NCBI GenBank assembly: GCA_035358315.1
Contig: DAOPPB010000001.1
Location: 1 to 59,688 of the forward strand
Direction: 5' to 3'
Source of the DNA: a bacterium
Lineage (GTDB): Bacteria > Patescibacteriota > WWE3 > UBA101185 > UBA10185
Length of the DNA stretch: 59,688 nucleotides
The stretch's first letter is position 1; every line of letters starts with the position of its first letter. Shown piece after piece: positions 9,934 to 38,740 of the stretch. The notes under the pieces were generated by a model. The model ran no database searches and was not told the origin of the DNA. It worked only from the letters and a program-made list of their open reading frames with translations. Position numbers and translations under genes: made by a program.

Positions 9934-10743
9934 TTACGGTGCGAAAAACAGCAGGAAAGACAAAAAAACAAGGACGATAGCGATATAGCCCGTTATCATT
10001 CCCTTAGATATTTCATTCTTAAGATGAGCTGAAACATAATTCAAGAGAAAAAGGAGGACTGAAGACACAAATAGAGCTCTCAGAAAATCTTCCGAAGGAA
10101 AAAATGACACCACAAGAGAAGAAGTGAAAATAAAAAACAGAGAAAGAAAACACAGATAAAATCTCTCCCCCACTCCGATCTTTTTAGCATCAGGTTCGAA
10201 TCTGTAAATCCACAATTGATAATAAGTAAATAAAAAAGAAATTACGGCCACTATAATTGATTGCACATAGGGAGAGACATTTATCTTAAAAATACCGGAA
10301 AAAAGGGGTATGGCGACAATTACCTGCAATATTTGACTCCACGTTACGGCAACCCTGTAAAGAGGAATTGTCTCTTCCCTATCCTGTACTACCAAAAAAA
10401 TGTTATCTGCAAGGGAAACTAGATAGTAAACCCCGGCAAAAAAGAAAATAACCATTATTTTAAAAACATTCCCCAAATTAGGATAAAAATGGAGCGATAG
10501 AATAGCACCTCCTAAGACACCCAAGGGCATCAAGATACTGTATAAGAAATTCTCCCGTGTTACCCCCGGATAATGAGATATTAGTACTCCGGTTGTTACC
10601 AAAACCACAGAAAGAAGCGCCAAAATCAAGGGATCGACATCTAATACCCCTTGCGTAAAAATATAGATGAAAACAGCAACCAAAAAAGACTGGATCAGAT
10701 ATTTATTTTTCTTTTCGAGTTCAAGATGAATCTTAGAAAACAT
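9934..10743 (-). CDS. Polytopic integral membrane protein, function unknown
   Basis: 269 aa, almost entirely hydrophobic, with roughly 7-8 predicted TM segments. It sits 2 nt downstream of ruvC in the same orientation. Confidence 0.6.
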   Translation of the reverse strand: MFSKIHLELEKKNKYLIQSFLVAVFIYIFTQGVLDVDPLILALLSVVLVTTGVLISHYPGVTRENFLYSILMPLGVLGGAILSLHFYPNLGNVFKIMVIFFFAGVYYLVSLADNIFLVVQDREETIPLYRVAVTWSQILQVIVAIPLFSGIFKINVSPYVQSIIVAVISFLFTYYQLWIYRFEPDAKKIGVGERFYLCFLSLFFIFTSSLVVSFFPSEDFLRALFVSSVLLFLLNYVSAHLKNEISKGMITGYIAIVLVFLSFLLFFAP

Positions 10744-10744
10744 T

Positions 10745-11257
10745 TTATTTCTTTTTGTTTCCTTTTGGCTTGGAGCCGTCTAAAACCACCTTTTTTATAT
10801 AGCAAAGGGCCATAGCAATCGCATCATTAGCATCGTCAGATGCTACCTTATCAGCAAGCTTTAAAGTTTTTTTAACCGCTTCTTGCATGACCTTCTTATC
10901 GGACCTGCCATAGCCGGTTAATACCAACTTGGCTTCCAAAGCAGTAAATTCATTCACTTTTACTTTTCGATTCGCCGCCGTTAGCATACTTATACCCCTA
11001 GCCTGACCTACAGCTATTGCAGTTTTTGCATTTGTATTAAAAAAAAGCTTTTCAATTACCATAACATCAGGATTGTATTTCTTAAGAACGGATGTAAGAC
11101 TTTCATAAAGATATTTCAACCTGTTTTCAGGTTCCAAATCAGCGTGGGTTACTATAACGTCGCTTTCCAGTAAACGAATGTTCTTACCGTCTTTTCCCAC
11201 TTTTATAACACCATACCCCATTCTGGCTGTTCCTGGGTCAATTCCTATTATTATCAT
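10745..11257 (-). CDS. ruvC: Holliday junction resolvase RuvC
   Basis: Motifs MIIIGIDPGTARMGYGVI, VIEKLFF and DANDAIAMALC. Confidence 0.9.
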   Translation of the reverse strand: MIIIGIDPGTARMGYGVIKVGKDGKNIRLLESDVIVTHADLEPENRLKYLYESLTSVLKKYNPDVMVIEKLFFNTNAKTAIAVGQARGISMLTAANRKVKVNEFTALEAKLVLTGYGRSDKKVMQEAVKKTLKLADKVASDDANDAIAMALCYIKKVVLDGSKPKGNKKK

Positions 11258-13512: not shown

Positions 13513-16047
13513 TTATTTCTCCTCTGTACTCTCAAAATTATTACCTATTGAACCATTTATGTTCTTACCGGAATATTCTTGAGCAATTGCCATCCCCTTG
13601 TCAAATCTGGTCGACAGCCACTTGTTAACCTTAGACTCTACCTTTTCTCTCGGCACACCATATTTCTCCCTGCTCCTCTGCAATACTTTTTCTTTATTTC
13701 CTGTTTTTTTAATTAAAAACTCATCATCCCAAGGAACTAATATTTTAGCTGAAAAAGGATGGGAAGTCATCCCGTCCACCATCAATTTCATATAAACCTG
13801 GAATCTCTCAAGAGAAATAATATCCTCCTCGCTGAAATACGGAGCGAATTCTTTTGCCAATTCTTTGGCATCGGGAGCACCTAAGGCAAAGGTAATTATT
13901 GTGCCCACATTTCCGTATACGGCCTTTAAAAGATCTTCCGGGAGCTGACCAGTAAACTGATGTGTCAAATTCAGACCCAATTTATACTTTCTTGACTCAG
14001 ACAAAATCTCTTCAAAACTTCCGGTGGCAAAATTCTGGAACTCATCAACATAAAGATAGAACGGTCTTCTTTTTTCATTCGGAATTTTAGCTCTTTGAAG
14101 AGCATAAAACTGTATTCTGGATACGAGAAGCGCCCCCAACAAATTAGCGTTATCCTGCCCTATCTTCCCTTTTGACAAGTTCATAAGAAGTATTTTTCCC
14201 GAATTCATAGCATCCCAAATGTCTATTGTGGATTTTCTCTGACCCAGTATATTTCTAATAGTAGTGGAAGCTAAAAATCTATTAACTTTATTTTGTATAG
14301 GAGAAATTGCCTCCGTAACAAGTTTTTGATTTCCCTTCATTTGCTTAAACTCTTCCGACCAAAACTTTTGCACAACAGGATCTTTTACAAAATGCAAAAT
14401 ATAATTAAGATAATTTTGGTCTTCTAATAACCTGGTAATTCCAAGCATTGTAGTCCCAGGAACTTCCAACAAGGTCAGAACACAGTAATTTAACAGGTAT
14501 TCTAATCTAGGTCCCCATGAAAAATCGAAATGCTGTTTTATTGCAGAAACAAGACCGGACGCCATCAAGTTCTTCTGAGACGGGTCATCAATCTCGAGCA
14601 GATTAAGCCCGACGGGATATTCCGTATCCGAAGGATCCAAATATATTACATCTTCTATTCTGTTGTCGGGAATTCTATCCAAAACATTTTCAATAGTTTC
14701 TCCGTGAGGATCTAAAATAGCCGCCCCCTCACCATTGGCTATATCCTGAGCCATCATGGTAACAAAGAGAGATGATTTTCCGGTTCCGGACTTTCCAATT
14801 ACATAAACATGTCTCAACCTATCATCGTTGTCATTTCTTATACCGAATTTTACTGATTGATTTCTGTAAACGGTTTCGCCCAAGTAGGTGCAATTTTCCG
14901 TCGGCAGATTAGCAGGAGGTTCAGATTTTCTTGAATATACCCAGGATATGTTTGGCGTATCTATATGGGAAAGAGGAAAATGATAAATAGTTGCAAGTTC
15001 CTCAGTATTTAGAATAATGGCTCTATTGGGATCAAACTCTCTTTTTTTGTAAGCATTTAGTGCTAATTCTTTATTATCCTCATTTTTGCTGATTAAGCTG
15101 TTTATACTGGTTCCGGAAAATTGCTCAAAAGAAGCTATTATTCCTCTTAAATTGGCATCTACCCGAGACTCTTCCGGCGCGGCAGAAACAACTCTGATAA
15201 CGGCTTCAAAACCCATTCTGGAAAGTTTATTTTCTATGGACTTTAATTCCGTTTCTTTAGCGGCGCTTATCTTAGGAGTAGTTGTATATTTACCCTTTAC
15301 CTCAACTCCTTCTGCAGGGCGGGTAAATAAACCAACTATAACTCCTGTAAATATTTCTGAAATCTCTTTCTTCACAGTATCAAAAAAGATATTGAACGTA
15401 CTCTTTACTTTCCCGGGATCTTGCCCCTCTCTGACTTTGTTTACATAATCAAAACCCTCCTGTTGCCATTTATCAGCAATTGGCCTGGTCAGAATTTGCA
15501 ACCATACTTCTTCACTTTTGGATAAAGTAGATACCGAGGAAGACAGAGAGGACATAGGATCGGTCTCAAAATCCCTAAAACTTCTTATCGGGTAATAATC
15601 CGGCTTGGAGAAAACCAAGCTTGATACTTTATAATTTATATGAGACGGATTTATCGCAGGGGTATAGTCGGATACTACGTTAACTATAGCTGTCGGATAT
15701 TGTGCGTATATCTGGCTTTCCACAAACTCGAGCACACTTAACGGAGTAGTAACATAAAATCTTATACCTCTCTCCCCAGAAGCCACCATTTCAAAAGAAA
15801 TATGCTCTTGAAGATCGGGATCGGATTTTAACAATCCGTGCAGTGCAGAAAACATATTCTCCGCACTTAAAGAAGAAGCCTGTATATCCCGCTTCTGGTC
15901 TTCATTCCTACTTAGCTGTACTTCCAATATTCCCCTATCATCGGATTTTTTATCTCTCGATTTTTCGCGCTGCCTAATACGCAGATACACACCAAGCAGT
16001 ATTGCTATTACAGGCAAAATTAAAATTAAATAGTTGTTTAAAGTCAT
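13513..16047 (-). CDS. Membrane-anchored TraD/VirD4/HerA-like P-loop ATPase
   Basis: N-terminal TM (LILILPVIAILLGVYL), Walker A VIGKSGTGKSS followed by AILDPHGE, and Walker B FYLYVDEFQNFAT followed by RKYKLGLNLTHQ. This arrangement is typical of coupling-protein / DUF87-like ATPases. Confidence 0.7.
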   Translation of the reverse strand: MTLNNYLILILPVIAILLGVYLRIRQREKSRDKKSDDRGILEVQLSRNEDQKRDIQASSLSAENMFSALHGLLKSDPDLQEHISFEMVASGERGIRFYVTTPLSVLEFVESQIYAQYPTAIVNVVSDYTPAINPSHINYKVSSLVFSKPDYYPIRSFRDFETDPMSSLSSSVSTLSKSEEVWLQILTRPIADKWQQEGFDYVNKVREGQDPGKVKSTFNIFFDTVKKEISEIFTGVIVGLFTRPAEGVEVKGKYTTTPKISAAKETELKSIENKLSRMGFEAVIRVVSAAPEESRVDANLRGIIASFEQFSGTSINSLISKNEDNKELALNAYKKREFDPNRAIILNTEELATIYHFPLSHIDTPNISWVYSRKSEPPANLPTENCTYLGETVYRNQSVKFGIRNDNDDRLRHVYVIGKSGTGKSSLFVTMMAQDIANGEGAAILDPHGETIENVLDRIPDNRIEDVIYLDPSDTEYPVGLNLLEIDDPSQKNLMASGLVSAIKQHFDFSWGPRLEYLLNYCVLTLLEVPGTTMLGITRLLEDQNYLNYILHFVKDPVVQKFWSEEFKQMKGNQKLVTEAISPIQNKVNRFLASTTIRNILGQRKSTIDIWDAMNSGKILLMNLSKGKIGQDNANLLGALLVSRIQFYALQRAKIPNEKRRPFYLYVDEFQNFATGSFEEILSESRKYKLGLNLTHQFTGQLPEDLLKAVYGNVGTIITFALGAPDAKELAKEFAPYFSEEDIISLERFQVYMKLMVDGMTSHPFSAKILVPWDDEFLIKKTGNKEKVLQRSREKYGVPREKVESKVNKWLSTRFDKGMAIAQEYSGKNINGSIGNNFESTEEK

Positions 16048-16060
16048 TTTTTCTCCCCGT

Positions 16061-16190
16061 CAGAACAAAATAAACCCCCGCCCTCTGATTTAGACAAAGT
16101 CTGAATCCGAAGGGGCAAGAAAAACTTCTAAGACCTGTAAGAAGAACATTCTAAAAGCCTTCCTTGCAGAACAAAATAAACCCCCGCCCT
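16061..16190. repeat. Two copies of a 24-bp direct repeat CAGAACAAAATAAACCCCCGCCCT
   Basis: Identical 24-mers at 16061-16084 and 16167-16190. The second overlaps a CCCCCG...CGGGGG hairpin (16181-16205) that would serve as the minus-strand terminator of the LCP gene. Confidence 0.7.
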
Positions 16191-32868: not shown

Positions 32869-33987
32869 TTAAACACTGAATCTAAAAACTGCCACATCTC
32901 CATCCTGCATAACATAATCCTTCCCCTCAAGCCTTATCAAACCCTTTTCTTTAGCGGTTTTTAAGCTTCCTATTTCCACTAAAGTTTCGTAATTTATTAT
33001 CTCGGCGGATATAAAACCTCTTTCAAAATCCGTGTGAATTTCCCCAGCGGCTTGTGGAGCTTTTGAACCTTTTTTAATTGTCCATGCCCGTACCTCTTTA
33101 GGACCCGCTGTGAAAAATGTATTCAATCCTAAAATTTCGTATCCTTTTTTTATCAATTTATCCAAACCGGAATATTCAATCCCAAGTTCTTTTAAGTAAC
33201 TTTCCCGTTCATTTTTATCAAAATCAGCCAGTTCGGCCTCTAATTTTGCGCAAATTACTATGGCGTCTTCTAAACCTTTAGGAAGCTTTTGTTCACTTTT
33301 TTTACTCAAATATTCCTCTTCTACATTCAGAACGTAAATCTGGGGTTTAAGAGTTAACAAATTTAATTCTTTGGAAGATTCTAATTCTTCTTCACTTAGC
33401 TCCAAGTCACTCGCAAAAACACCGTTGTTTAACCCTTCTAAAATTTTCTTTGCCGTTTCGTATTTTAATTTTACTTCCTTATCCGCCGAACCTTTAACTT
33501 CCTTTTCCAGTTTTTCCATTACTTTTTCAAGTGATTGAATATCCGCGAGCATAAGCTCCGTATTTACGGTTTGTCTGTCATTTTCAGGATTCTCCGAACC
33601 TGCTCTTACAACATTTTCATCTTCAAAAGCCCTGACAACATGGGCAATAGCATTTACCTCTCTGATATGCCCCAAAAAGGCATTTCCAAGCCCCTCTCCT
33701 TTTGACGCTCCTTTTACCAAACCTGCGATATCATAGAACTTTACCACCGCAGGAGTTACTTTTTCCGGTATTTCCCTGCCCTCAAAACCTCTACCGTAGT
33801 CATTTACAACTATTTTGCACAATTCTTCCAACCTATGATCGGGAACATCTACAACACCTACATTTGGCTCAATGGTAGCAAATGGATAATTTGCGGCTAA
33901 GGCGGCCTGGCGTTTTAATAATGCATTAAAAAGTGTGGATTTACCGACGTTTGGGAGCCCGATTATTCCTATTGATAGTGATGACAT
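32869..33987 (-). CDS. ychF: Ribosome-binding ATPase YchF
   Basis: GIIGLPNVGKSTLFNAL and a C-terminal TGS-like IHTDFERGFI. Confidence 0.95.
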   Translation of the reverse strand: MSSLSIGIIGLPNVGKSTLFNALLKRQAALAANYPFATIEPNVGVVDVPDHRLEELCKIVVNDYGRGFEGREIPEKVTPAVVKFYDIAGLVKGASKGEGLGNAFLGHIREVNAIAHVVRAFEDENVVRAGSENPENDRQTVNTELMLADIQSLEKVMEKLEKEVKGSADKEVKLKYETAKKILEGLNNGVFASDLELSEEELESSKELNLLTLKPQIYVLNVEEEYLSKKSEQKLPKGLEDAIVICAKLEAELADFDKNERESYLKELGIEYSGLDKLIKKGYEILGLNTFFTAGPKEVRAWTIKKGSKAPQAAGEIHTDFERGFISAEIINYETLVEIGSLKTAKEKGLIRLEGKDYVMQDGDVAVFRFSV

Positions 33988-34071: not shown

Positions 34072-35406
34072 CTATCTCGGGTTTACCTTAATTACATCGC
34101 CCAATTTGTGCTCAACACTATGTGTCACAACACATATAAAACCTACCCCAGGCTGGTAAAGATAGACTGCGGGCACGATATGTGCATAGGACAACGCTAT
34201 TTCTGCCGAAGCCCAATTAGATGTTTTACCACTCAAAAAAACGGGTTTACCAGGTTCTGTTTCCGGCGGGATAATCTCACCTAAATTTTTACTATCAACT
34301 ATTGTAAACCGATCTTTAGCATACTCAACCAAGGTTCCGCCTTGAAAGCCTTCTGTAACTTTCCAAGGTAAGGGCCCACTACCATTCCCTTCGGGGCAAT
34401 TGCTTCCCTTTATTCCGATAACACCACCTTTAATTTTACTGTCCGCCAATGCCACCTCACTCGGATGCAAAGCATGTAAAATGTTAATAATTAAAAACTG
34501 GGGAGCTCTGCCATCAATAACAAATTTTCCCCCTCTCTCTGCCATTTTCTGCAAGGCACTATAAACTGCAGACAACTCTTCCGGCTTCCAATCTAACCCT
34601 TTTATAGGCTCTCTACCTGGTAAAAAAATTTCCTCAGGTTTTTTACCAATCATCTCTGCTATAGATTCTATACTGATTTTTTCATACTCTGACATGATTA
34701 CTTTTTCCTCCTTAGGAGGTACTCTTTCCAAAAGATATGATGCTAACTCTCTCAGTGTTCCTGAATCTTTAAATTTCCCCCTATCAAGCCCAACTACAAC
34801 TCCTTCCGTTTCCCAGTCCTCACCGGGTGTTCTTATAAACGACTCAGACTGGGTTCCGTCTAGTGTTGAATGTAGGACGGCTAAAATGTTTAACCCGGTT
34901 CTATTTGCAAGTTCAACCCATTCAGTAATTTTTCCGGGGTCGGAAGAAATAACAATCATGGAGTTAGCTTCTTTACATATTTCTTCATTTTCAGGGCTAA
35001 CCACACCACCAACGTCAACCAGGGTAAAACGGCTGTTACTATTTGCAACCTGTAATTTCCAGTGGCCAACATTTTCTGGTGAAAAATCACCTTTATTTCT
35101 AAGTTGCCGTGCTAAATCACTATCCTCCCCATATAAATTCTGGGTCCAATCTCCCTCCCCATCGGGTTGCGCCGCCACCCGCATCGTATCCTCCAAAGGT
35201 AACATGCTTCGAATAAATCTCTCGGCTATAGACTTTCCGGAGTGTGGGGGACCCACAATTACTATTTTGGCCTCGTTGCCAATTTCCTTCTTAGCGGGTA
35301 TTTCATCTTTAGGAGCCTCGTTGGAATTCACGGATCCCGAGCCAGATTCACTCGATTTCTCAACAGAAAGCGATAAATCATTTTTATTAGGGTCGATCTC
35401 AAGCAT
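34072..35406 (-). CDS. P-loop NTPase fused to two tandem Csx3-like domains
   Basis: Walker A IVGPPHSGKS, and LVDVGG (Walker B / G3-like). Two C-terminal segments, KFVIDGRAPQFLIINILHALHPSEVALADSKIKGGVIGI and KPVFLSGKTSNWASAEIALSYAHIVPAVYLYQPGVGFICVVTHSVEHKLGDVI, resemble the Csx3 signature as I recall it. I use the ATG at 35406; a TTG at 35457 is the alternative start. Confidence 0.55.
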   Translation of the reverse strand: MLEIDPNKNDLSLSVEKSSESGSGSVNSNEAPKDEIPAKKEIGNEAKIVIVGPPHSGKSIAERFIRSMLPLEDTMRVAAQPDGEGDWTQNLYGEDSDLARQLRNKGDFSPENVGHWKLQVANSNSRFTLVDVGGVVSPENEEICKEANSMIVISSDPGKITEWVELANRTGLNILAVLHSTLDGTQSESFIRTPGEDWETEGVVVGLDRGKFKDSGTLRELASYLLERVPPKEEKVIMSEYEKISIESIAEMIGKKPEEIFLPGREPIKGLDWKPEELSAVYSALQKMAERGGKFVIDGRAPQFLIINILHALHPSEVALADSKIKGGVIGIKGSNCPEGNGSGPLPWKVTEGFQGGTLVEYAKDRFTIVDSKNLGEIIPPETEPGKPVFLSGKTSNWASAEIALSYAHIVPAVYLYQPGVGFICVVTHSVEHKLGDVIKVNPR

Positions 35407-35502
35407 AAATTTTCCGTTTTTAAAATAAAAATTCGTGAAAACTCTACTTCTGAACAAATGATAGCATTTTTTATAACAAAGAAAGAAAATGGAAGTAAAA
35501 AA

Positions 35503-35579
35503 AGCCCGGACGTTAAATATATGATTAGATTACAAAAGTGTCCTACCAACACTTGTTATCATATGCAAACATCCGGGCT
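35503..35579 (-). promoter_or_regulatory. Terminator-like hairpin + U-run inside the 5' leader of the NTPase-Csx3 gene (possible attenuator)
   Basis: AGCCCGGA (35503-35510) pairs with TCCGGGCT (35572-35579). On the minus strand the hairpin is followed by TTTTTTT, about 40 nt before the start codon. A 9-codon micro-ORF (MFAYDNKCW) with the SD-like GAGGGGAG lies inside it. Confidence 0.35.
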
Positions 35580-35817: not shown

Positions 35818-36768
35818 TTACTCTCTCAGCTGCAGGTTTGCAGCTAGGATTTCGGAAATCTTTGACCTTTCCCACGCCTCAGCCATCTCAGGTGTGGTTC
35901 CCACAAACATGACCCCCTCGCCGTTATAATTAATTACCAAAACCTTAAGACCTATTAATTCGTAACCCCCTCCGTCAACCAGGTCAACCAGGGCGTACAC
36001 TCCCCCCCTATAGTTATTATTTATCAATACCTCTCCCTGATACGGGGGTAACAAAACGTCACCCTTCTTGTGTTCGGTCACGGGATTAAAACTGAAATCC
36101 ACCCCATATAGGTCATAATAGACCCATTCAGTTCTATCCCTGTTTCTCTCTAGCCACCTCAAGGCTTCTTCGGCGTCCTTTCCGAGGACGTCAGAATAAG
36201 TCCTCCACCCATCCTGGGTGGCAATGTACCACCCCCCTGGTTCCCCGAATAAAGTCCCTTCGGGGACTTGGCTGACCACCGATCCTTCTACAAGAAAACA
36301 GTTGCCGTCTGGCAACTCTAGTAACTTGTAACCACTACCCACGACAAAAATATTTGAAGCAATTGCTTCAAATATTCTTACCCTATCCAGGCGTCCCTCA
36401 GGTTTAAAAAATAAAGCCTCCTCCCAGAAGGCCCTTTCATAAACCACGTCCGGATCCCCCTTTAGGATTTCTTCGACTTTTCTGTAGAAATCCCTCTCAT
36501 CATTCCAGCTCCAAAGGCCATATTTGAAATCAAGCCCGAGGGCCTTCTTCCCAACTTCAACTACAAAATCCCCCGGGACATTGCCCCTTTGAATAAAACA
36601 CATCAGCTCAAAGCTGATTTGCTTTGCGTCTTCCATGGCCTTCGGGATCAATTTGACCCCACATCCAAGATCAAGAGCTCTATTATAGAGCTCTTTAACA
36701 ACGCTTAACTCCCCCCTCACTTTGTATTTGTAATCGATTGGAACATATGGGTATATTTTCTTTGCCAT
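35818..36768 (-). CDS. Hypothetical protein, 316 aa, GC-rich relative to the genome
   Basis: Perfect SD GGAGGTAAAA before the ATG at 36768, and a strong terminator downstream. No motif I recognise. Confidence 0.6.
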   Translation of the reverse strand: MAKKIYPYVPIDYKYKVRGELSVVKELYNRALDLGCGVKLIPKAMEDAKQISFELMCFIQRGNVPGDFVVEVGKKALGLDFKYGLWSWNDERDFYRKVEEILKGDPDVVYERAFWEEALFFKPEGRLDRVRIFEAIASNIFVVGSGYKLLELPDGNCFLVEGSVVSQVPEGTLFGEPGGWYIATQDGWRTYSDVLGKDAEEALRWLERNRDRTEWVYYDLYGVDFSFNPVTEHKKGDVLLPPYQGEVLINNNYRGGVYALVDLVDGGGYELIGLKVLVINYNGEGVMFVGTTPEMAEAWERSKISEILAANLQLRE

Positions 36769-36850
36769 TTTTACCTCCTTTACGGGGTGGCAGACCCCAT
36801 GTTTTATTTCTATTAAGCTAATTTTGCTCAATAGCTAGTACAGGCATTCT

Positions 36851-37704
36851 TTTGGTAGGCAGGATTAAATACCTGTACATAGTTATTGAACAAATAATTA
36901 CGACGATTTTTGAATTTTCATTGATATGACTTAAATTTTCAAAGTACCCTTTCCTTAACTTTTTCCTAATCTCAACCCTGATTTTTTAAAAAAATAAGAG
37001 CTGAGTTAGGAGATCATCCTACAAAAGCAAGATGATGGACTCTCCCTTTTAGGTAGTATCCATAAACCTATTTGGCAGGATACTTTTGTCAGGAGTAAAC
37101 AGATTAATATTTACCACCCTTTAAAGTTCTTGTAATATCTGAACTTTTAAATTCTTCTTAGATCTTTTAATTTAAAATCTCTAAGAGCGAATATTTAAAG
37201 CAATCAATTTTTGGGCCACTCTCTTTAGACGGTAAACCGTCGCTTGCTTTGCAAGCTAAAAGCAGATTCCCTATATTTGTTAAGATTTTAACCTAACTTC
37301 TGAACAATTATTCATTATCCAGATGAGGTCTTCCTAATCCTTCTATTGTGGGGCCTTTATAATTTGGCAGGTTTGCCCAATCAATAACCATTATTTGGCG
37401 ATGAAAGATATAGGTGACTATATTTTTTTGTGTTTAAAAAGATTCAATTTTATCTTTTAAACAGAAATCTGTCCGAGATACCGGAATAAATTAGTACTCT
37501 CCCCGTTTAAATTAAAAAGATAAATGTTATCTTGAAACATGGGAATTTTGTTCGTGTATCTCAGGCAAGTTTTTGCTTAAAAGATTTCTCCGGATAAAAA
37601 AGCCGGGACCTAATGAGAATTATATTTTTTTAATTCTCACCAAATCTCGGCTTTTTGTTTTTTAAAAGAAAATCTTCTTTGGCAGGCCTTTAAGATTTGG
37701 TAGG
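36851..37704 (+). repeat. Dispersed same-orientation repeat family, core TTTGG(C/T)AGG, 5 copies
   Basis: Cores at 36851, 37071, 37363, 37678 and 37696. Two copies extend to about 19 bp (gcctttataatttggcagg at 37353-37371 against gcctttaagatttggtagg at 37686-37704, 16 of 19 identical). Spacing is irregular. Confidence 0.55.
37595..37662. terminator. Bidirectional terminator-like nested hairpin
   Basis: Outer stem AGCCGGGA (37601-37608) / TCTCGGCT (37645-37652) with one G-U pair. Inner stem GAGAATTA (37615-37622) / TAATTCTC (37631-37638). An A-run precedes it and TTTTTGTTTTTT follows. Confidence 0.55.
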
Positions 37705-37896
37705 TTCTTTTTTGCTTCTTATTTTTATATAGTTTTTAAAGTACCCTTCTGCCTTTCTCTTTTATCTTCCTTGACCTTGAACAAACACATTATAACTTAT
37801 AGTTTTATGTTTGTCAAGTGCTTTTGATAATTAATAAATAGTATAACTAGCTATTTTTCTCCCTTTATTAGGGATAATATACTATAAGTTTTTATA

Positions 37897-37918
37897 TTTG
37901 TCAAGTATATTTGACAAA
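37897..37918. promoter_or_regulatory. Palindromic operator candidate TTTGTCAA-N6-TTGACAAA overlapping TTGACA -35-like hexamers
   Basis: Perfect 8-bp inverted repeat 46 bp upstream of the TrmB-like gene ATG. The half-site TTTGTCAAGT with the same left flank (TATAA.TT.T.ATGTTTGTCAAGT) recurs at about 37795-37820. Confidence 0.55.
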
Positions 37919-37963
37919 ATAATAATTGACATAGTATTGGTCTTTTGGTATCTTCAAGAAGAT

Positions 37964-38740
37964 ATGTATTCAAAGATTTTAAAAGAGTCGGGATTAAAAG
38001 ATAAAGAAGCAATCGTTTATGACATATTATTAGAACACGGCACATTACCCGTTTCAGAAATCATAAAAAAATCAGGATTAAAAAGAGGTATAGTTTATAA
38101 AACACTTTATGATCTTCAAGATAAAGGTTTGGCCTCTCAAAAAATAATTAAAAAGAGGTTACATTTTAGTGCCGAACACCCATACAAACTCTCGGACCTT
38201 ATTGAAGAGCAGTTAAAGGAAGCACAAAACCATCAATTAACGTTACAAACCTATCTACCACAACTAATATCTGCCTTTAAAACCGGGGATAACAAACCAG
38301 GCGTGAAAATATACGAAGGGTTAAGCGGAATCAAAGAAGTTTACAACGACACATTAAAAGAGGGTAAGGAAATTTTGGCAATATTACAAACTTCGGAAGT
38401 GGAACCAAAAATTTACGAGTGGTTAACACACGTTTACAGCAAAAAAAGAGCGGATATGGGTATTTGGGCGAAAGTTATAGCAGCAGAGGACGTTAAAACG
38501 AAGGCGTATGTGAGTAAAAACGAGGCTGAAAAACGTGAAACAAGGGTTGTTCCCAAAGATAAGTTCCCTATTGGTATTGAAGTAGATATCTACGGTAACA
38601 AAGTGGCCTTTATAAACTTCCACAAAGATGGGGATTTAGTAGGCATTATTGTTCAAAACGAGCTTATTGCCAATACAATGTGTGCCATGTTTACATTAGC
38701 ATGGGAAAAAGCTGGCGACTATGTCACCCAGCTTCAGTAG
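37964..38740 (+). CDS. TrmB-family winged-helix transcriptional regulator
   Basis: N-terminus MYSKILKESGLKDKEAIVYDILLEHGTLPVSEIIKKSGLKRGIVYKTLYDLQDKGLA matches the TrmB HTH pattern. I use the ATG at 37964 rather than the upstream non-ATG start at 37898. Confidence 0.8.
   Translation: MYSKILKESGLKDKEAIVYDILLEHGTLPVSEIIKKSGLKRGIVYKTLYDLQDKGLASQKIIKKRLHFSAEHPYKLSDLIEEQLKEAQNHQLTLQTYLPQLISAFKTGDNKPGVKIYEGLSGIKEVYNDTLKEGKEILAILQTSEVEPKIYEWLTHVYSKKRADMGIWAKVIAAEDVKTKAYVSKNEAEKRETRVVPKDKFPIGIEVDIYGNKVAFINFHKDGDLVGIIVQNELIANTMCAMFTLAWEKAGDYVTQLQ

What the first reader, a model, noticed from the sequence alone, without database searches (positions are those of the whole stretch)
34072..35457. Orphan P-loop NTPase fused to two tandem Csx3-like (cyclic-oligoadenylate ring-nuclease family) domains, with no CRISPR-Cas in sight
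The N-terminal part has a Walker A (IVGPPHSGKS) and an hhhhDVGG motif. The C-terminal ~200 aa contains two consecutive segments that match the Csx3/Crn3 signature as I recall it from Archaeoglobus fulgidus AF1864 (approximately GVVISGRGPIWLHCFLAHKYHH..FVAVYDPRLGAVVVQSHS....GDVI). Segment 1 is KFVIDGRAPQFLIINILHALHPSEVALADSKIKGGVIGI. Segment 2 is KPVFLSGKTSNWASAEIALSYAHIVPAVYLYQPGVGFICVVTHSVEHKLGDVIKV. Csx3 is known as a homodimeric cA4-binding and cA4-cleaving accessory protein of type III CRISPR systems, and fusions to AAA-type ATPases have been reported. Two copies in one chain would form a pseudo-dimer with one ligand site. The two halves differ (ALADSK against LYQPG at the position of the acidic residue), so one half may be non-catalytic. 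The window has no cas10, no other cas gene, no CRISPR array and no CD-NTase, and the gene sits in an apparently inserted islet. It could be a stand-alone nucleotide-signal sensor, effector or decoy. That is inference.
Basis: partly seen in the sequence, partly recalled or inferred. Interest (0 to 1): 0.8.

Follow-up and report, generated by a model that had tools for sequence, protein, structure and literature searches.

The report
Orphan NTPase with double Csx3
A gene in a small-genome (CPR/Patescibacteria) bacterium fuses a nucleotide-hydrolysing switch to two copies of the CRISPR "ring-nuclease" domain Csx3; it belongs to an already catalogued but never characterised CRISPR-accessory family (AAA-Csx3), and here it has no CRISPR system nearby.

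Summary
Window 34072-35406 (-) encodes a 444-aa protein made of a disordered N-terminus, a P-loop NTPase domain and two Csx3-like domains in tandem. It is not a new architecture. PADLOC's profile for the type III accessory family C3a67 "AAA-Csx3" (Shah et al. 2018) matches it end to end (E 3e-35). In Chloroflexota, relatives sit beside Cas10/Cmr genes.

New points:
- The "AAA" domain is a kinase/GTPase-class P-loop (GPPHSGKS, PDGEGDWT, LVDVGG), not AAA+.
- The Csx3 part is an asymmetric double module. The Crn3 catalytic residues occur once only: H311, H314, D322 and K324 in copy 1, and H429 in copy 2.
- That double module also exists alone (~200 aa) and fused to HD or MazF domains.
- 25 Patescibacteria loci, including this window, show no cas gene or array within 10 kb or more.

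The gene is not inserted: its GC3 is native and it keeps partial synteny with ychF-rpsF-ssb-rpsR. The upstream ORFan is compositionally foreign.

Most likely it is a single-chain oligoadenylate receptor, possibly ligand-cleaving, coupled to an NTPase and now separated from CRISPR. Ligand and activity are untested. It is a new member of a known kind, of moderate interest.

The parts
34072..35406 (-). Gene for the 444-aa P-loop NTPase + tandem Csx3 protein. The stop codon is 34072-34074. The ORF can be extended to a TTG at 35457, but the ATG at 35406 is the likely start.
   Evidence: (P0001 is 100% identical and 444 aa). PADLOC C3a67 AAA-Csx3 matches the full length at E 3e-35.
35275..35406 (-). 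N-terminal ~44 residues: low-complexity, Ser/Glu/Lys-rich, predicted disordered, and not conserved in the family.
   Evidence: pLDDT is 42-53 for residues 1-30. This segment is variable or absent in the A1 alignment.
34711..35274 (-). P-loop NTPase domain (residues 45-232), of the kinase/GTPase (KG) class rather than AAA+.
   Evidence: No Pfam hit even at E<=10. Foldseek PDB hits are SRP54/FtsY, Cfd1, HypB, MinD and small-molecule kinases at E about 1e-3 to 1e-2. BFVD hits are P-loop kinases and Zeta toxin. The same domain occurs in ~300-aa cyanobacterial Csx3-P-loop proteins, and PADLOC 'Csx3-AAA' matches residues 37-213 at E 6e-39.
35230..35253 (-). Walker A motif, GPPHSGKS (residues 52-59; K58).
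   Evidence: Invariant or near-invariant in 51 family members.
35143..35166 (-). Family signature PDGEGDWT (residues 81-88), placed after strand 2. It may be a switch-I or substrate loop.
   Evidence: P81, D82, G85 and W87 are invariant, and G83, E84 and T88 nearly so. The proposed role is inference.
35005..35022 (-). Walker B / DxxG motif, LVDVGG (residues 129-134). No Glu follows the Asp.
   Evidence: D131, G133 and G134 are invariant. The only sequence-level PDB resemblance is to G-alpha switch II, DVGGQRSE.
34387..34701 (-). Csx3-like copy 1 (residues 236-340), divergent. It carries G299-R300-x-P302, H311 (=AfCsx3 H57), H314 (=H60), D322 (=D69) and K324 (=R71).
   Evidence: Pfam 19.1 bits, E 1.2e-3. 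hhalign against copy 2 gives 96% probability, E 3.6e-9. A copy-1 HMM scores 24-38 bits on the Csx3 domains of annotated cyanobacterial Crn3/Csx3 proteins. AF2 plus Foldseek puts AfCsx3 as top hit, but at TM 0.41-0.49. Residue map.
34075..34386 (-). Csx3-like copy 2 (residues 341-444), canonical fold. It carries S392-G393-K394...W398 and H429 (=AfCsx3 H80), but L405/A408/Q418/G420 at the H57/H60/D69/R71 positions.
   Evidence: Pfam 33.2 bits. PDB phmmer E 4e-4. Foldseek TM 0.80-0.87, rmsd about 1.9 A. Residue map.
35516..35544 (-). Weak sigma-70-like promoter match (AGGACA-17-TATATT, 9 of 12) about 110 nt upstream of the ATG. No terminator-like site lies between this gene and ychF (32869-33987), 84 nt downstream.
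   Evidence: This is a consensus match only; co-transcription with ychF is inference.

Best explanation
**What it is (shown).** It is a chromosomal member of the AAA-Csx3 (C3a67) protein family that has been separated from CRISPR. The protein has a kinase/GTPase-class P-loop NTPase followed by two Csx3/Crn3-like domains in one chain. The gene is a long-term resident of a Patescibacteria lineage whose closest relatives are Candidatus Dojkabacteria MAGs.

**How it most likely works (inferred).**
- The two Csx3 copies pack like the Csx3 homodimer and form one binding cleft for cyclic tetra-adenylate or a closely related oligoadenylate. Both copies keep the ligand loop: G-R-x-P in copy 1 and S-G-K...W in copy 2.
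- The Crn3 catalytic residues survive as a single composite set. D322 and K324 of copy 1 lie on the 'D69 face'. H311 and H314 of copy 1, plus H429 of copy 2, lie on the 'H60 face'.
- Head-to-tail association of two molecules around the ligand could therefore still cut it, at one site rather than two. That would make the protein a self-limiting receptor.
- The invariant NTPase is the coupled output or gate. NTP binding or hydrolysis would either respond to ligand occupancy or control the stacking.
- In this lineage the module works without an adjacent type III system. It probably acts on oligoadenylates as part of nucleotide or RNA turnover, or within a signalling route not yet found.
For: **Family membership**
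- The PADLOC C3a67 profile covers residues 48-441 against model positions 7-379 of 382 (E 3e-35), and the Csx3-AAA profile covers the P-loop (E 6e-39).
- The first search found 64 homologues, most sharing the same architecture. The GTDB species genomes hold 295 relatives.

**Csx3 identity of the C-terminal half:**

**Residue map against the published AfCsx3 mechanism** (PMC7371418)
- In the 16-sequence window clade, D322 and K324 are 16/16, H311 11/16, H314 12/16 and H429 11/16.
- In the next clade, H311 is 12/13, H314 13/13 and H429 13/13.
- Copy 2 has Q at the D69 position almost everywhere.

**Active NTPase:** the P-loop motifs are invariant in all 51 aligned members despite about 25% overall identity.

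**The tandem module behaves as a portable sensor**
- It occurs alone as ~200-aa proteins that start with Met and have no P-loop gene nearby.
- It is also fused to HD and PemK/MazF domains.

**CRISPR ancestry**
- In 38 of 48 Chloroflexota loci the gene sits next to core type III genes (29 loci: Cas10/Cmr2, Cmr3, RAMPs) and/or a divergent CARF-HTH gene (9 further loci have only that gene).
- A Bacillota MAG member lies about 180 nt from an 18-repeat array with Cas6.

**Separation from CRISPR**
- 23 Patescibacteria-titled loci, plus L001 and the window, have no cas hit and no array within 10 kb or more.
- CPR genomes rarely carry CRISPR-Cas (PMC4742961).

**Native status:** GC3 z +0.44, with ychF-rpsF-ssb-rpsR shared with L001.
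Against: - No ligand, cleavage or NTPase activity has been measured for any member of this family. I found no such work in the library.
- The pseudo-dimer geometry was not checked.
- Copy 1 is only weakly Csx3-like by fold (TM below 0.5).
- TIGR02579, the Crn3 equivalog model, is not reached (38 bits against a 55.4 cut-off).
- The His residues are not universal even in the window clade (11-12 of 16). They are largely absent from the type III-linked Chloroflexota members, so catalysis may not be the family's core function.
- No source of cA4 is known in this organism.
Confidence: 0.55

Rival explanations
1. It is an accessory that acts in trans. The genome encodes a type III CRISPR-Cas system (or mCpol or another oligoadenylate cyclase) outside this 59.7-kb contig, and the protein is an ordinary cA4-responsive accessory or ring nuclease that merely sits elsewhere.
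For: The family is demonstrably type III-linked in Chloroflexota, Thioploca and a Bacillota MAG. Ring nucleases are sometimes found in loci without an effector and may serve another locus in trans (PMC12409355). Some CPR lineages do carry CRISPR-Cas (PMC6509639).
Against: None of 25 Patescibacteria loci from at least five candidate phyla shows a cas gene or array within 10 kb or more. In contrast, core type III genes flank 29 of 48 Chloroflexota loci, and a CARF-HTH gene alone flanks 9 more. CPR genomes are mostly devoid of CRISPR-Cas (PMC4742961). In Saccharibacteria the gene sits in its own conserved operon with HD_4 and MYG1.
Confidence: 0.15
2. It is a binding-only sensor. The tandem Csx3 module only senses a ligand, as a CARF or SAVED domain does, and does not cleave it. 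The P-loop NTPase or kinase is the sole effector.
For: The type III-linked Chloroflexota members keep the ligand-binding face of copy 1 (GRGPxW and FDPRLG) but lack H57, H60 and H80 equivalents. The same tandem module is fused to classical effector domains such as MazF/PemK and HD. Shah et al. proposed allosteric control of the ATPase by Csx3 (PMC6546367).
Against: The window clade and the neighbouring clade retain the HxxH pair, the Asp and the H80 equivalent far more than drift would predict. Stand-alone tandem-Csx3 proteins with the same residues and no effector exist, which fits an enzyme better than a sensor.
Confidence: 0.2
3. It works in RNA or nucleotide turnover. In CPR bacteria the protein acts on RNA 3' ends or linear oligoadenylates, using the deadenylase-type activity first reported for Csx3. 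The P-loop acts as a kinase or motor, and the products feed nucleotide salvage rather than signalling.
For: **Recurrent CPR neighbours**
- HD_4 hydrolase, translationally coupled in 7 loci, and the MYG1/UPF0160 exonuclease family in 10 loci, in Saccharibacteria.
- A DEAH/HA2 helicase in L004, L012, L013, L020 and L030.
- In L001: CCA-adding enzyme, beta-CASP RNase, ribose-1,5-bisphosphate isomerase family and an AMP-phosphorylase-like gene, all on one strand.

**Other points**
- AfCsx3 cleaves and binds RNA in vitro (Yan et al. 2015, as cited in PMC7371418).
- Foldseek places the P-loop as close to small-molecule and polynucleotide kinases as to GTPases.
Against: The associations differ between lineages and none is present in the window itself. 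AfCsx3 binds cA4 about 100-fold more tightly than RNA (PMC7371418). There is no direct evidence for kinase activity.
Confidence: 0.2
4. It is anti-defence cargo of a mobile islet, acting as a decoy or sponge for a host's cyclic oligoadenylates.
For: Overall GC of the gene is high for the window (0.427, z +2.2), and the adjacent ORFan is clearly foreign. In three other Patescibacteria loci (L018, L020, L024) the family gene is itself GC3-foreign (z +2.7 to +5.5), so the gene does move horizontally.
Against: The gene's GC3 here is native (z +0.44). No integrase, tRNA or repeat flanks it. There is 1 hit in 2.9 million IMG/VR contigs, none in 50,697 GenBank phages, and no Csx3-like match in BFVD. 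The NTPase motifs are invariant, which a sponge would not need.
Confidence: 0.03

Closest known systems
C3a67 'AAA-Csx3' type III CRISPR accessory family (Shah et al. 2018, cluster 67, exemplar Caur_2269; PADLOC PDLC01059)
   Same: The full-length profile matches (residues 48-441 against 7-379 of 382, E 3e-35). The domain order is the same: P-loop first, Csx3 last. The invariant P-loop motifs are the same. Both have the tandem Csx3 arrangement with Q at the D69 position of copy 2.
   Different: It is about 25% identical to the Chloroflexota members. No type III genes or CARF-HTH partner lie nearby. Copy 1 has the HxxH pair and copy 2 the H80 equivalent, which the Chloroflexota members mostly lack. 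R71 is replaced by K. It has an extra disordered N-terminus.
Crn3/Csx3 ring nuclease (Archaeoglobus fulgidus AF1864; PDB 6YUD, 3WZI; Pfam PF09620, TIGR02579)
   Same: Copy 2 has the Csx3 fold (TM 0.80-0.87). Both copies keep the SG(R/K)...W ligand loop. Equivalents of H57, H60, D69, R71 (as K) and H80 are all present somewhere in the chain.
   Different: It is one chain with two unequal copies rather than a ~110-aa homodimer. Each catalytic residue occurs once, not twice. It is fused to an NTPase. It scores below the TIGR02579 equivalog cut-off (38 against 55.4 bits). It is not next to a type III locus.
Csx3-AAA / Csx3' of cyanobacteria (Shah cluster 35, CYB_0599; PADLOC PDLC01045; NCBI 'CRISPR-associated ring nuclease Crn3/Csx3', ~300 aa)
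   Same: It has the same dedicated P-loop domain. The family N-domain HMM scores 101-125 bits on P0066-P0078, and PADLOC gives E 6e-39.
   Different: The domain order is reversed (Csx3 first) and there is a single Csx3 copy.
Stand-alone tandem-Csx3 proteins (~200 aa; e.g. P0081, P0083, P0095, P0097) and their HD or MazF fusions; unnamed in the sources I could read
   Same: The same two-copy module at 33-45% identity, with the HxxH pair in copy 1 and T/S-H-S in copy 2.
   Different: They have no P-loop domain and no P-loop gene nearby. Others carry HD (P0093) or PemK/MazF (P0111) domains instead.
CARF- or SAVED-domain sensor-effector fusions of type III CRISPR and CBASS (Csm6/Csx1, Cap4 and others)
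   Same: The logic is analogous only: a cyclic-oligonucleotide sensor fused to an output domain, often degrading its own ligand.
   Different: The sensor fold is unrelated. Csx3 is described as closer to STAS domains (PMC12409355; PMC7159879). No CARF or SAVED domain is present here.

Membership tests
C3a67 AAA-Csx3 (protein family) | Full-length match to the family profile | tested here: met
   PADLOC PDLC01059: E 3e-35, 120 bits, residues 48-441 against model positions 7-379 of 382.
C3a67 AAA-Csx3 (protein family) | N-terminal P-loop NTPase followed by C-terminal Csx3 | tested here: met
   The architecture is described in PMC6546367.
C3a67 AAA-Csx3 (as a type III CRISPR accessory gene) | Encoded next to a type III cas cassette | tested here: not met
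   The window has no cas gene or array, and neither do 24 other Patescibacteria loci. The feature is met in Chloroflexota relatives. The whole genome is not testable here.
Csx3/Crn3 (Pfam PF09620) | Score at or above the Pfam gathering score | tested here: met
   45.5 bits against 21 for the whole protein. Copy 2 alone scores 33.2; copy 1 alone scores 19.1, just below.
Csx3/Crn3 ring nuclease (NCBIfam TIGR02579 equivalog) | Score at or above the equivalog cut-off | tested here: not met
   38 bits against a cut-off of 55.4.
Csx3/Crn3 ring nuclease | Csx3 fold | tested here: met
   Copy 2: TM 0.80-0.87 and rmsd about 1.9 A to 3WZG/6YUD. Copy 1 is inconclusive: AfCsx3 is the top hit, but at TM 0.41-0.49 and E 0.09.
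Csx3/Crn3 ring nuclease | H57, H60, H80, D69 and R71 conserved in every protomer | tested here: not met
   Copy 1 has H311, H314, D322 and K324 but no H80 equivalent. Copy 2 has H429 only, with L405, A408, Q418 and G420 at the other positions. A single composite set is present.
Csx3/Crn3 ring nuclease | Two-fold dimer forming the cA4 site, with head-to-tail stacking for catalysis | not testable with these tools
The pTM of 0.85 only says that domain packing is confident.
Csx3/Crn3 ring nuclease | Binds cA4 and cleaves it in a Mn2+-dependent manner | not testable with these tools
   This is a biochemical question.
AAA+ ATPases | AAA+ profile or fold, with a Walker B hhhhDE | tested here: not met
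   No Pfam hit of any family on residues 1-239 except Colicin_Ia at E 0.1. Walker B is LVDVGG, with no Glu. Structural neighbours are SRP/FtsY, MinD, HypB and P-loop kinases. The only AAA+ entries in the profile search (Vesicle-fusing ATPase/NSF) match the Walker A stretch alone, positions 5-25.
P-loop GTPase superclass (TRAFAC/SIMIBI) | G1 (GxxxxGKS/T), G3 (DxxG) and G4 (NKxD) motifs, and the fold | tested here: inconclusive
   G1 and G3 are present and invariant. No NKxD is present; only S180 is conserved at that strand end. Fold matches are weak (E about 1e-3, TM 0.2-0.4) and equal to those for kinases.
CARF superfamily | CARF-domain profile or fold match | tested here: not met
   The protein has no CARF hit. 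The only 'CARF3' PADLOC hit in the window is the wHTH of the TrmB-like gene at 37898-38740, which matches model positions 135-191 of 204.

The most novel reading that the evidence does not exclude
Patescibacteria, which mostly lack CRISPR-Cas, may have kept and re-used a type III accessory as the core of a CRISPR-independent oligoadenylate pathway. A single-chain Crn3-like receptor and ring nuclease, gated by an NTPase, would detect or destroy cA4-like molecules, whether self-made, phage-made or leaking from the host the episymbiont is attached to. Its products would pass to an HD_4 hydrolase and a MYG1-type exonuclease, the Saccharibacteria operon partners, and on to AMP salvage.
Probability: 0.12. 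Interest if true: 0.75.

Novelty: new member of a known kind. Interest (0 to 1): 0.4.

Why it matters
No AAA-Csx3 or Csx3-AAA fusion has been characterised experimentally in anything I could read. Reviews still call the partner domain an 'AAA+ ATPase of unknown function'.

This analysis adds four testable points:
1. The partner is a kinase/GTPase-class P-loop.
2. The Csx3 part is an asymmetric tandem pseudo-dimer that keeps one composite catalytic set.
3. That tandem module is a portable unit. It occurs alone, with the P-loop, with HD and with MazF.
4. A sizeable clade lives in Patescibacteria without cas neighbours, and in Saccharibacteria it sits in an operon with nucleotide and RNA hydrolases.

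If that clade really works without Cas10, it would be an example of a CRISPR signalling part re-used in reduced-genome symbionts. If a type III system lies elsewhere in the genome, the gene is an ordinary accessory.

Tried and rejected
- **CRISPR array or cas genes in the window.** TRF, a direct-repeat search, Rfam, and PADLOC plus Pfam on all 47 ORFs found none. The PADLOC 'CARF3' hit is only the wHTH of a TrmB-like regulator.
- **P-loop identity by sequence.**
  - Pfam on the isolated domain (E<=10) gave nothing relevant.
  - NCBIfam on the full-length protein gave only TIGR02579 and a chance sigma-70 hit.
  - A profile search of PDB gave only motif-level hits (adenylate-kinase Walker A, G-alpha switch II).
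  - The class is therefore assigned only broadly.
- **First genome-contig scan.** The 51-sequence alignment failed for lack of a conserved 7-mer. A 15-sequence alignment worked.
- **Phage origin or decoy role.** One IMG/VR contig, no GenBank phage, and no Csx3-like BFVD structure. Rejected.
- **Inserted islet.** Rejected for the gene on GC3 and synteny. Retained for the neighbouring ORFan.
- **k-mer 'array' signal in L010/L016.** It proved to be three tandem promoter-like copies 85 nt apart, not CRISPR.
- **Were the 'stand-alone' tandem-Csx3 proteins split genes?** No P-loop domain exists in any frame of L093-L097.
- **Literature.** Makarova et al. 2020 (CARF classification) and Brown et al. 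2020 (JBC) are not held. I therefore cannot exclude that the tandem nature of C3a67 was already noted there. No held paper links Csx3 with Patescibacteria or CPR.
- **The 1.07-kb non-coding stretch at 36832-37897.** Rfam gave only chance-level matches.
Full report

Yes. The window holds an ORF at 34072..35457 (-), 461 aa from a TTG. A 100%-identical database protein is 444 aa (P0001), so the likely start is the ATG at 35406. All quoted strings are present: GPPHSGKS, LVDVGG and both 'Csx3-like' segments.

The Csx3 assignment rests on these results:
- Pfam PF09620 scores 45.5 bits (gathering score 21) with two stretches.
- Tested separately, copy 2 scores 33.2 bits and copy 1 scores 19.1 bits (E 1.2e-3).
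- phmmer against PDB sequences finds A. fulgidus Csx3.
- An AF2 model built on 51 homologues is confident (pLDDT 90.7, pTM 0.85). Its C-terminal domain matches AfCsx3 at TM 0.80-0.87 and about 1.9 A.
- Copy 1 is a real but divergent copy.
  - Its profile aligns to that of copy 2 with hhalign probability 96% (E 3.6e-9).
  - It scores 24-38 bits on the Csx3 domains of annotated cyanobacterial Crn3/Csx3 proteins.
  - A separate AF2 model has AfCsx3 as its best PDB matches, but only at TM 0.41-0.49.

**2. What family is it?**

It is not a new fusion.
- PADLOC's profile PDLC01059, 'C3a67 AAA-Csx3', matches residues 48-441 against model positions 7-379 of 382 (E 3e-35).
- PDLC01045, 'Csx3-AAA', matches the P-loop half (E 6e-39).
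- Shah et al. 2018 defined both clusters as type III accessory families. Cluster 35 has Csx3 then AAA and is cyanobacterial. Cluster 67 has the opposite order, with exemplar Caur_2269 (PMC6546367).
- Later reviews repeat 'fused to an AAA ATPase of unknown function' (PMC8284326; PMC12409355).
- I found no experimental work on either fusion.

**3. Family anatomy.**

The first search found 64 homologues, most 370-460 aa with the same layout. GTDB species genomes hold 295 relatives.
- Residues invariant across about 25% identity are almost all in the P-loop domain: G52-P-P-H-S-G-K58-S, P81-D-G-E-G-x-W87-(T), R103, K105, L-V-D131-V-G-G134, W163 and S180.
- That domain has no relevant Pfam hit.
- Its structural neighbours are SRP54/FtsY, Cfd1, HypB, MinD and small P-loop kinases. 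No AAA+ protein is among them.
- The only sequence-level echoes are an adenylate-kinase-type Walker A and the G-alpha switch II motif 'DVGGQRSE'.
- No Glu follows the Walker B Asp. I therefore call it a kinase/GTPase-class P-loop, and treat 'AAA' as a historical label.
- The same domain follows a single Csx3 in the ~300-aa cyanobacterial proteins. It is thus a dedicated Csx3 partner.

**4. The two Csx3 copies are unequal.**

I mapped them onto the AfCsx3 mechanism (PMC7371418). In AfCsx3, cA4 is bound mainly by the 'D69 face': S44-G45-R46, I49 and R71, with D69 essential. A second dimer supplies the 'H60 face' (H57, H60, H80).
- Copy 1 of the window protein has G299-R300-x-P302, H311 (=H57), H314 (=H60), D322 (=D69) and K324 (=R71), but no H80 equivalent.
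- Copy 2 has S392-G393-K394...W398 and H429 (=H80), but L405, A408, Q418 and G420 at the H57, H60, D69 and R71 positions.
- Every catalytic residue therefore occurs once, as a composite set.
- In the 16-sequence window clade, D322 and K324 are 16/16, and the three His are 11-12/16. In the next clade the three His are 12-13/13.
- The type III-linked Chloroflexota members keep the binding face of copy 1 (GRGPxW, FDPRLG) but mostly lack the histidines.
The asymmetry holds across the whole family.

**5. The tandem module is portable.**

An exhaustive HMMER search with residues 236-444 found 93 cluster representatives.
- Many are ~200-aa proteins consisting of the tandem module alone. They start with Met. 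They have upstream non-coding DNA and no P-loop domain in any frame of their contigs.
- Others carry HD (P0093) or PemK/MazF (P0111) domains.
- This is how a ligand-sensing or ligand-processing cassette behaves.

**6. Genomic context across the family.**

I called ORFs in 92 loci, clustered them and built HMMs of the recurrent neighbours. Pfam named the clusters.
- **Chloroflexota.**
  - A CARF (Cas_NE0113)-HTH gene lies divergently next door in 23 loci, with a median gap of 24 nt.
  - Core type III genes (Cas10/Cmr2, Cmr3 or RAMPs) flank 29 of 48 loci, and 9 more have only the CARF-HTH gene.
  - Most of the rest are contigs under 7 kb.
- **Other CRISPR-linked members.**
  - A Bacillota MAG member (33% identical, with the His residues) lies about 180 nt from an 18-repeat CRISPR array with Cas6.
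  - Short P-loop-Csx3 proteins in Chlorobiaceae, Thioploca and Parabeggiatoa sit by arrays or Cmr genes.
- **Patescibacteria.**
  - The sample is 23 titled loci (Dojkabacteria, Saccharibacteria, Moraniibacteriota, Paceibacterota, Doudnabacteria), plus L001 and the window.
  - None has a cas hit or an array within 10 kb or more. The one k-mer signal was three tandem promoter-like repeats.
- **Tree.** An approximate NJ tree separates the Chloroflexota clade from a CPR-rich superclade that also contains the CRISPR-linked Bacillota, Thioploca and Chlorobi members. This fits a CRISPR-associated ancestry with later separation.

**7. What surrounds it in CPR genomes?**
- In Saccharibacteria there is a conserved string: a ~110-aa ORF, the family gene (~495 aa), an HD_4 hydrolase whose start overlaps the family gene's stop, a MYG1/UPF0160 protein and a ~555-aa ORF.
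- HD_4 recurs divergently in a Paceibacterota locus.
- A DEAH/HA2 helicase is adjacent in L004, L012, L013, L020 and L030.
- A TrmB-like wHTH regulator lies divergently upstream within 5 kb in the window, L018, L020, L025 and L030.
- In L001 (71% identical) the gene is embedded, on one strand, among a CCA-adding enzyme, DUF3850, a beta-CASP RNase, an IF-2B-family isomerase and a thymidine/AMP-phosphorylase-family gene. The ychF-rpsF-ssb-rpsR block follows about 7 kb downstream.
- In the window the same block follows directly, 84 nt away, with no terminator-like site between.
- The recurring theme is RNA and nucleotide hydrolysis, but the partners differ by lineage. This is suggestive, not conclusive.

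**8. Inserted islet?**

Not for this gene.
- Its overall GC is high (0.427, z +2.2), but its GC3 is 0.362 (z +0.44). The L001, L004 and L012 orthologues are also GC3-native.
- No tRNA or repeat lies next to it. One ORF in the window hits Pfam Phage_integrase, but I did not locate it.
- The upstream ORF 35818-36831 is different.
  - It has the highest GC (0.459) and GC3 (0.506, z +4.5) in the window.
  - It has no Pfam or PADLOC hit.
  - It has no homologue among 5.8 billion proteins other than itself.
  - It is followed by 1.07 kb without an ORF.
- In L018, L020 and L024 the family gene itself is GC3-foreign (z +2.7 to +5.5). The family does move horizontally into some Patescibacteria, but not recently here.

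**9. Mechanism.**

*Shown:*
- domain composition;
- family membership;
- invariant NTPase motifs;
- a composite catalytic set;
- portability of the tandem module;
- CRISPR linkage in some phyla and its absence in Patescibacteria loci.

*Inferred:*
- The two copies form a Csx3-like pseudo-dimer with one oligoadenylate site.
- Two molecules stacked head-to-tail could cleave the ligand once.
- NTP binding or hydrolysis gates or reports this. Kinase/GTPase-class P-loops commonly dimerise on NTP.
- I rate this self-limiting receptor model at about 0.55.

*Rivals:*
- a binding-only sensor (0.2);
- an RNA or oligo-A turnover enzyme with a kinase-like P-loop (0.2);
- an ordinary accessory serving a type III system elsewhere in the genome (0.15);
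- a mobile decoy (0.03).

**10. Verdict.**

The protein is a new member of a known but uncharacterised family, so the architecture is not a discovery.

What is worth following up:
- the corrected domain assignment;
- the asymmetric tandem Csx3;
- the stand-alone and alternatively fused versions;
- the CRISPR-less Patescibacteria clade.

Interest is 0.4. The whole-genome check for Cas10 and a cA4 binding and cleavage assay would settle most of the open points.

Noticed in passing
window 35818-36831 (-): ORFan directly upstream of the Csx3 gene on the same strand (337 aa from TTG; 316 aa in its database twin P0167). It has no Pfam or PADLOC hit and no homologue other than itself among 5.8 billion proteins. 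It has the highest GC (0.459) and GC3 (0.506, z +4.5) of all 47 window ORFs, so it looks like a recent foreign insertion.
   Followed up: partly
window 36832-37897: A 1.07-kb AT-rich stretch (GC about 0.31) with no ORF of 30 aa or more apart from trivial ones, which is unusual for a compact genome. On the minus strand a perfect TTGACA-17-TATAAT promoter match (37817-37789) is followed about 140 nt later by a 16-bp hairpin with a T-run (37646-37607). This could be a small RNA. Rfam gives only chance-level matches.
   Followed up: partly
L059 8999-14858, and L058, L060, L066, L073, L076, L087, L089, L091 (Saccharibacteria): Conserved gene string: a ~110-aa ORF, the P-loop-Csx3x2 gene (with a ~97-aa N-terminal extension), an HD_4 hydrolase (PF13328) whose start overlaps the preceding stop, MYG1/UPF0160 (PF03690) and a ~555-aa ORF with no Pfam hit.
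   Followed up: partly
L001 8517-16248: In a 71%-identical relative the gene lies on one strand between a CCA-adding enzyme and DUF3850, two small ORFs, a beta-CASP RNase, an IF-2B-family (ribose-1,5-bisphosphate isomerase-like) gene and a thymidine/AMP-phosphorylase-family gene. Together these look like an RNA-to-AMP salvage cluster.
   Followed up: no
L018, L020, L024 (family gene at about 10001-11200, or 1675-2802 in L020): In these Patescibacteria loci the family gene is strongly GC3-foreign (0.51-0.76 against 0.28-0.46 for its neighbours; z +2.7 to +5.5), which indicates recent horizontal acquisition. The window clade and Saccharibacteria copies are native.
   Followed up: partly
window 37898-38740 (+); L018 6985-7812, L020 641-1450, L025 4690-5577, L030 6445-7233: A TrmB-like wHTH regulator with an uncharacterised ~190-aa C-terminal domain recurs divergently upstream of the family gene in five distantly related loci, including the window. 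Its HTH weakly resembles that of Csa3/CasR-type CARF regulators.
   Followed up: partly
L007 8810-11877 (also L008, L009): Two family members lie in tandem: P0032 (395 aa) is followed 180 nt downstream by a 566-aa paralogue that is 29% identical to the window protein.
   Followed up: no
L005 7538-9905 (Ardenticatena): Here the divergent CARF(Cas_NE0113)-HTH partner heads an RtcB RNA-ligase gene rather than cas genes, which recalls CARF-regulated RNA-repair operons.
   Followed up: no
L094 1024-6544: A stand-alone 201-aa tandem-Csx3 gene sits immediately upstream of a type IV pilus gene set (PilC/T2SSF, PilM, PilO and an N-methyl pilin) on the same strand.
   Followed up: no
L010 8996-9219: Three tandem copies, 85 nt apart, of a 54-nt element containing consensus-like -35 and -10 boxes lie in the 1.7-kb gap upstream of the family gene.
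   Followed up: no
window 16061-16084 and 16167-16190: A perfect 24-nt direct repeat (CAGAACAAAATAAACCCCCGCCCT), 106 nt apart, in the intergenic region downstream of the 844-aa ORF 13513-16047.
   Followed up: no
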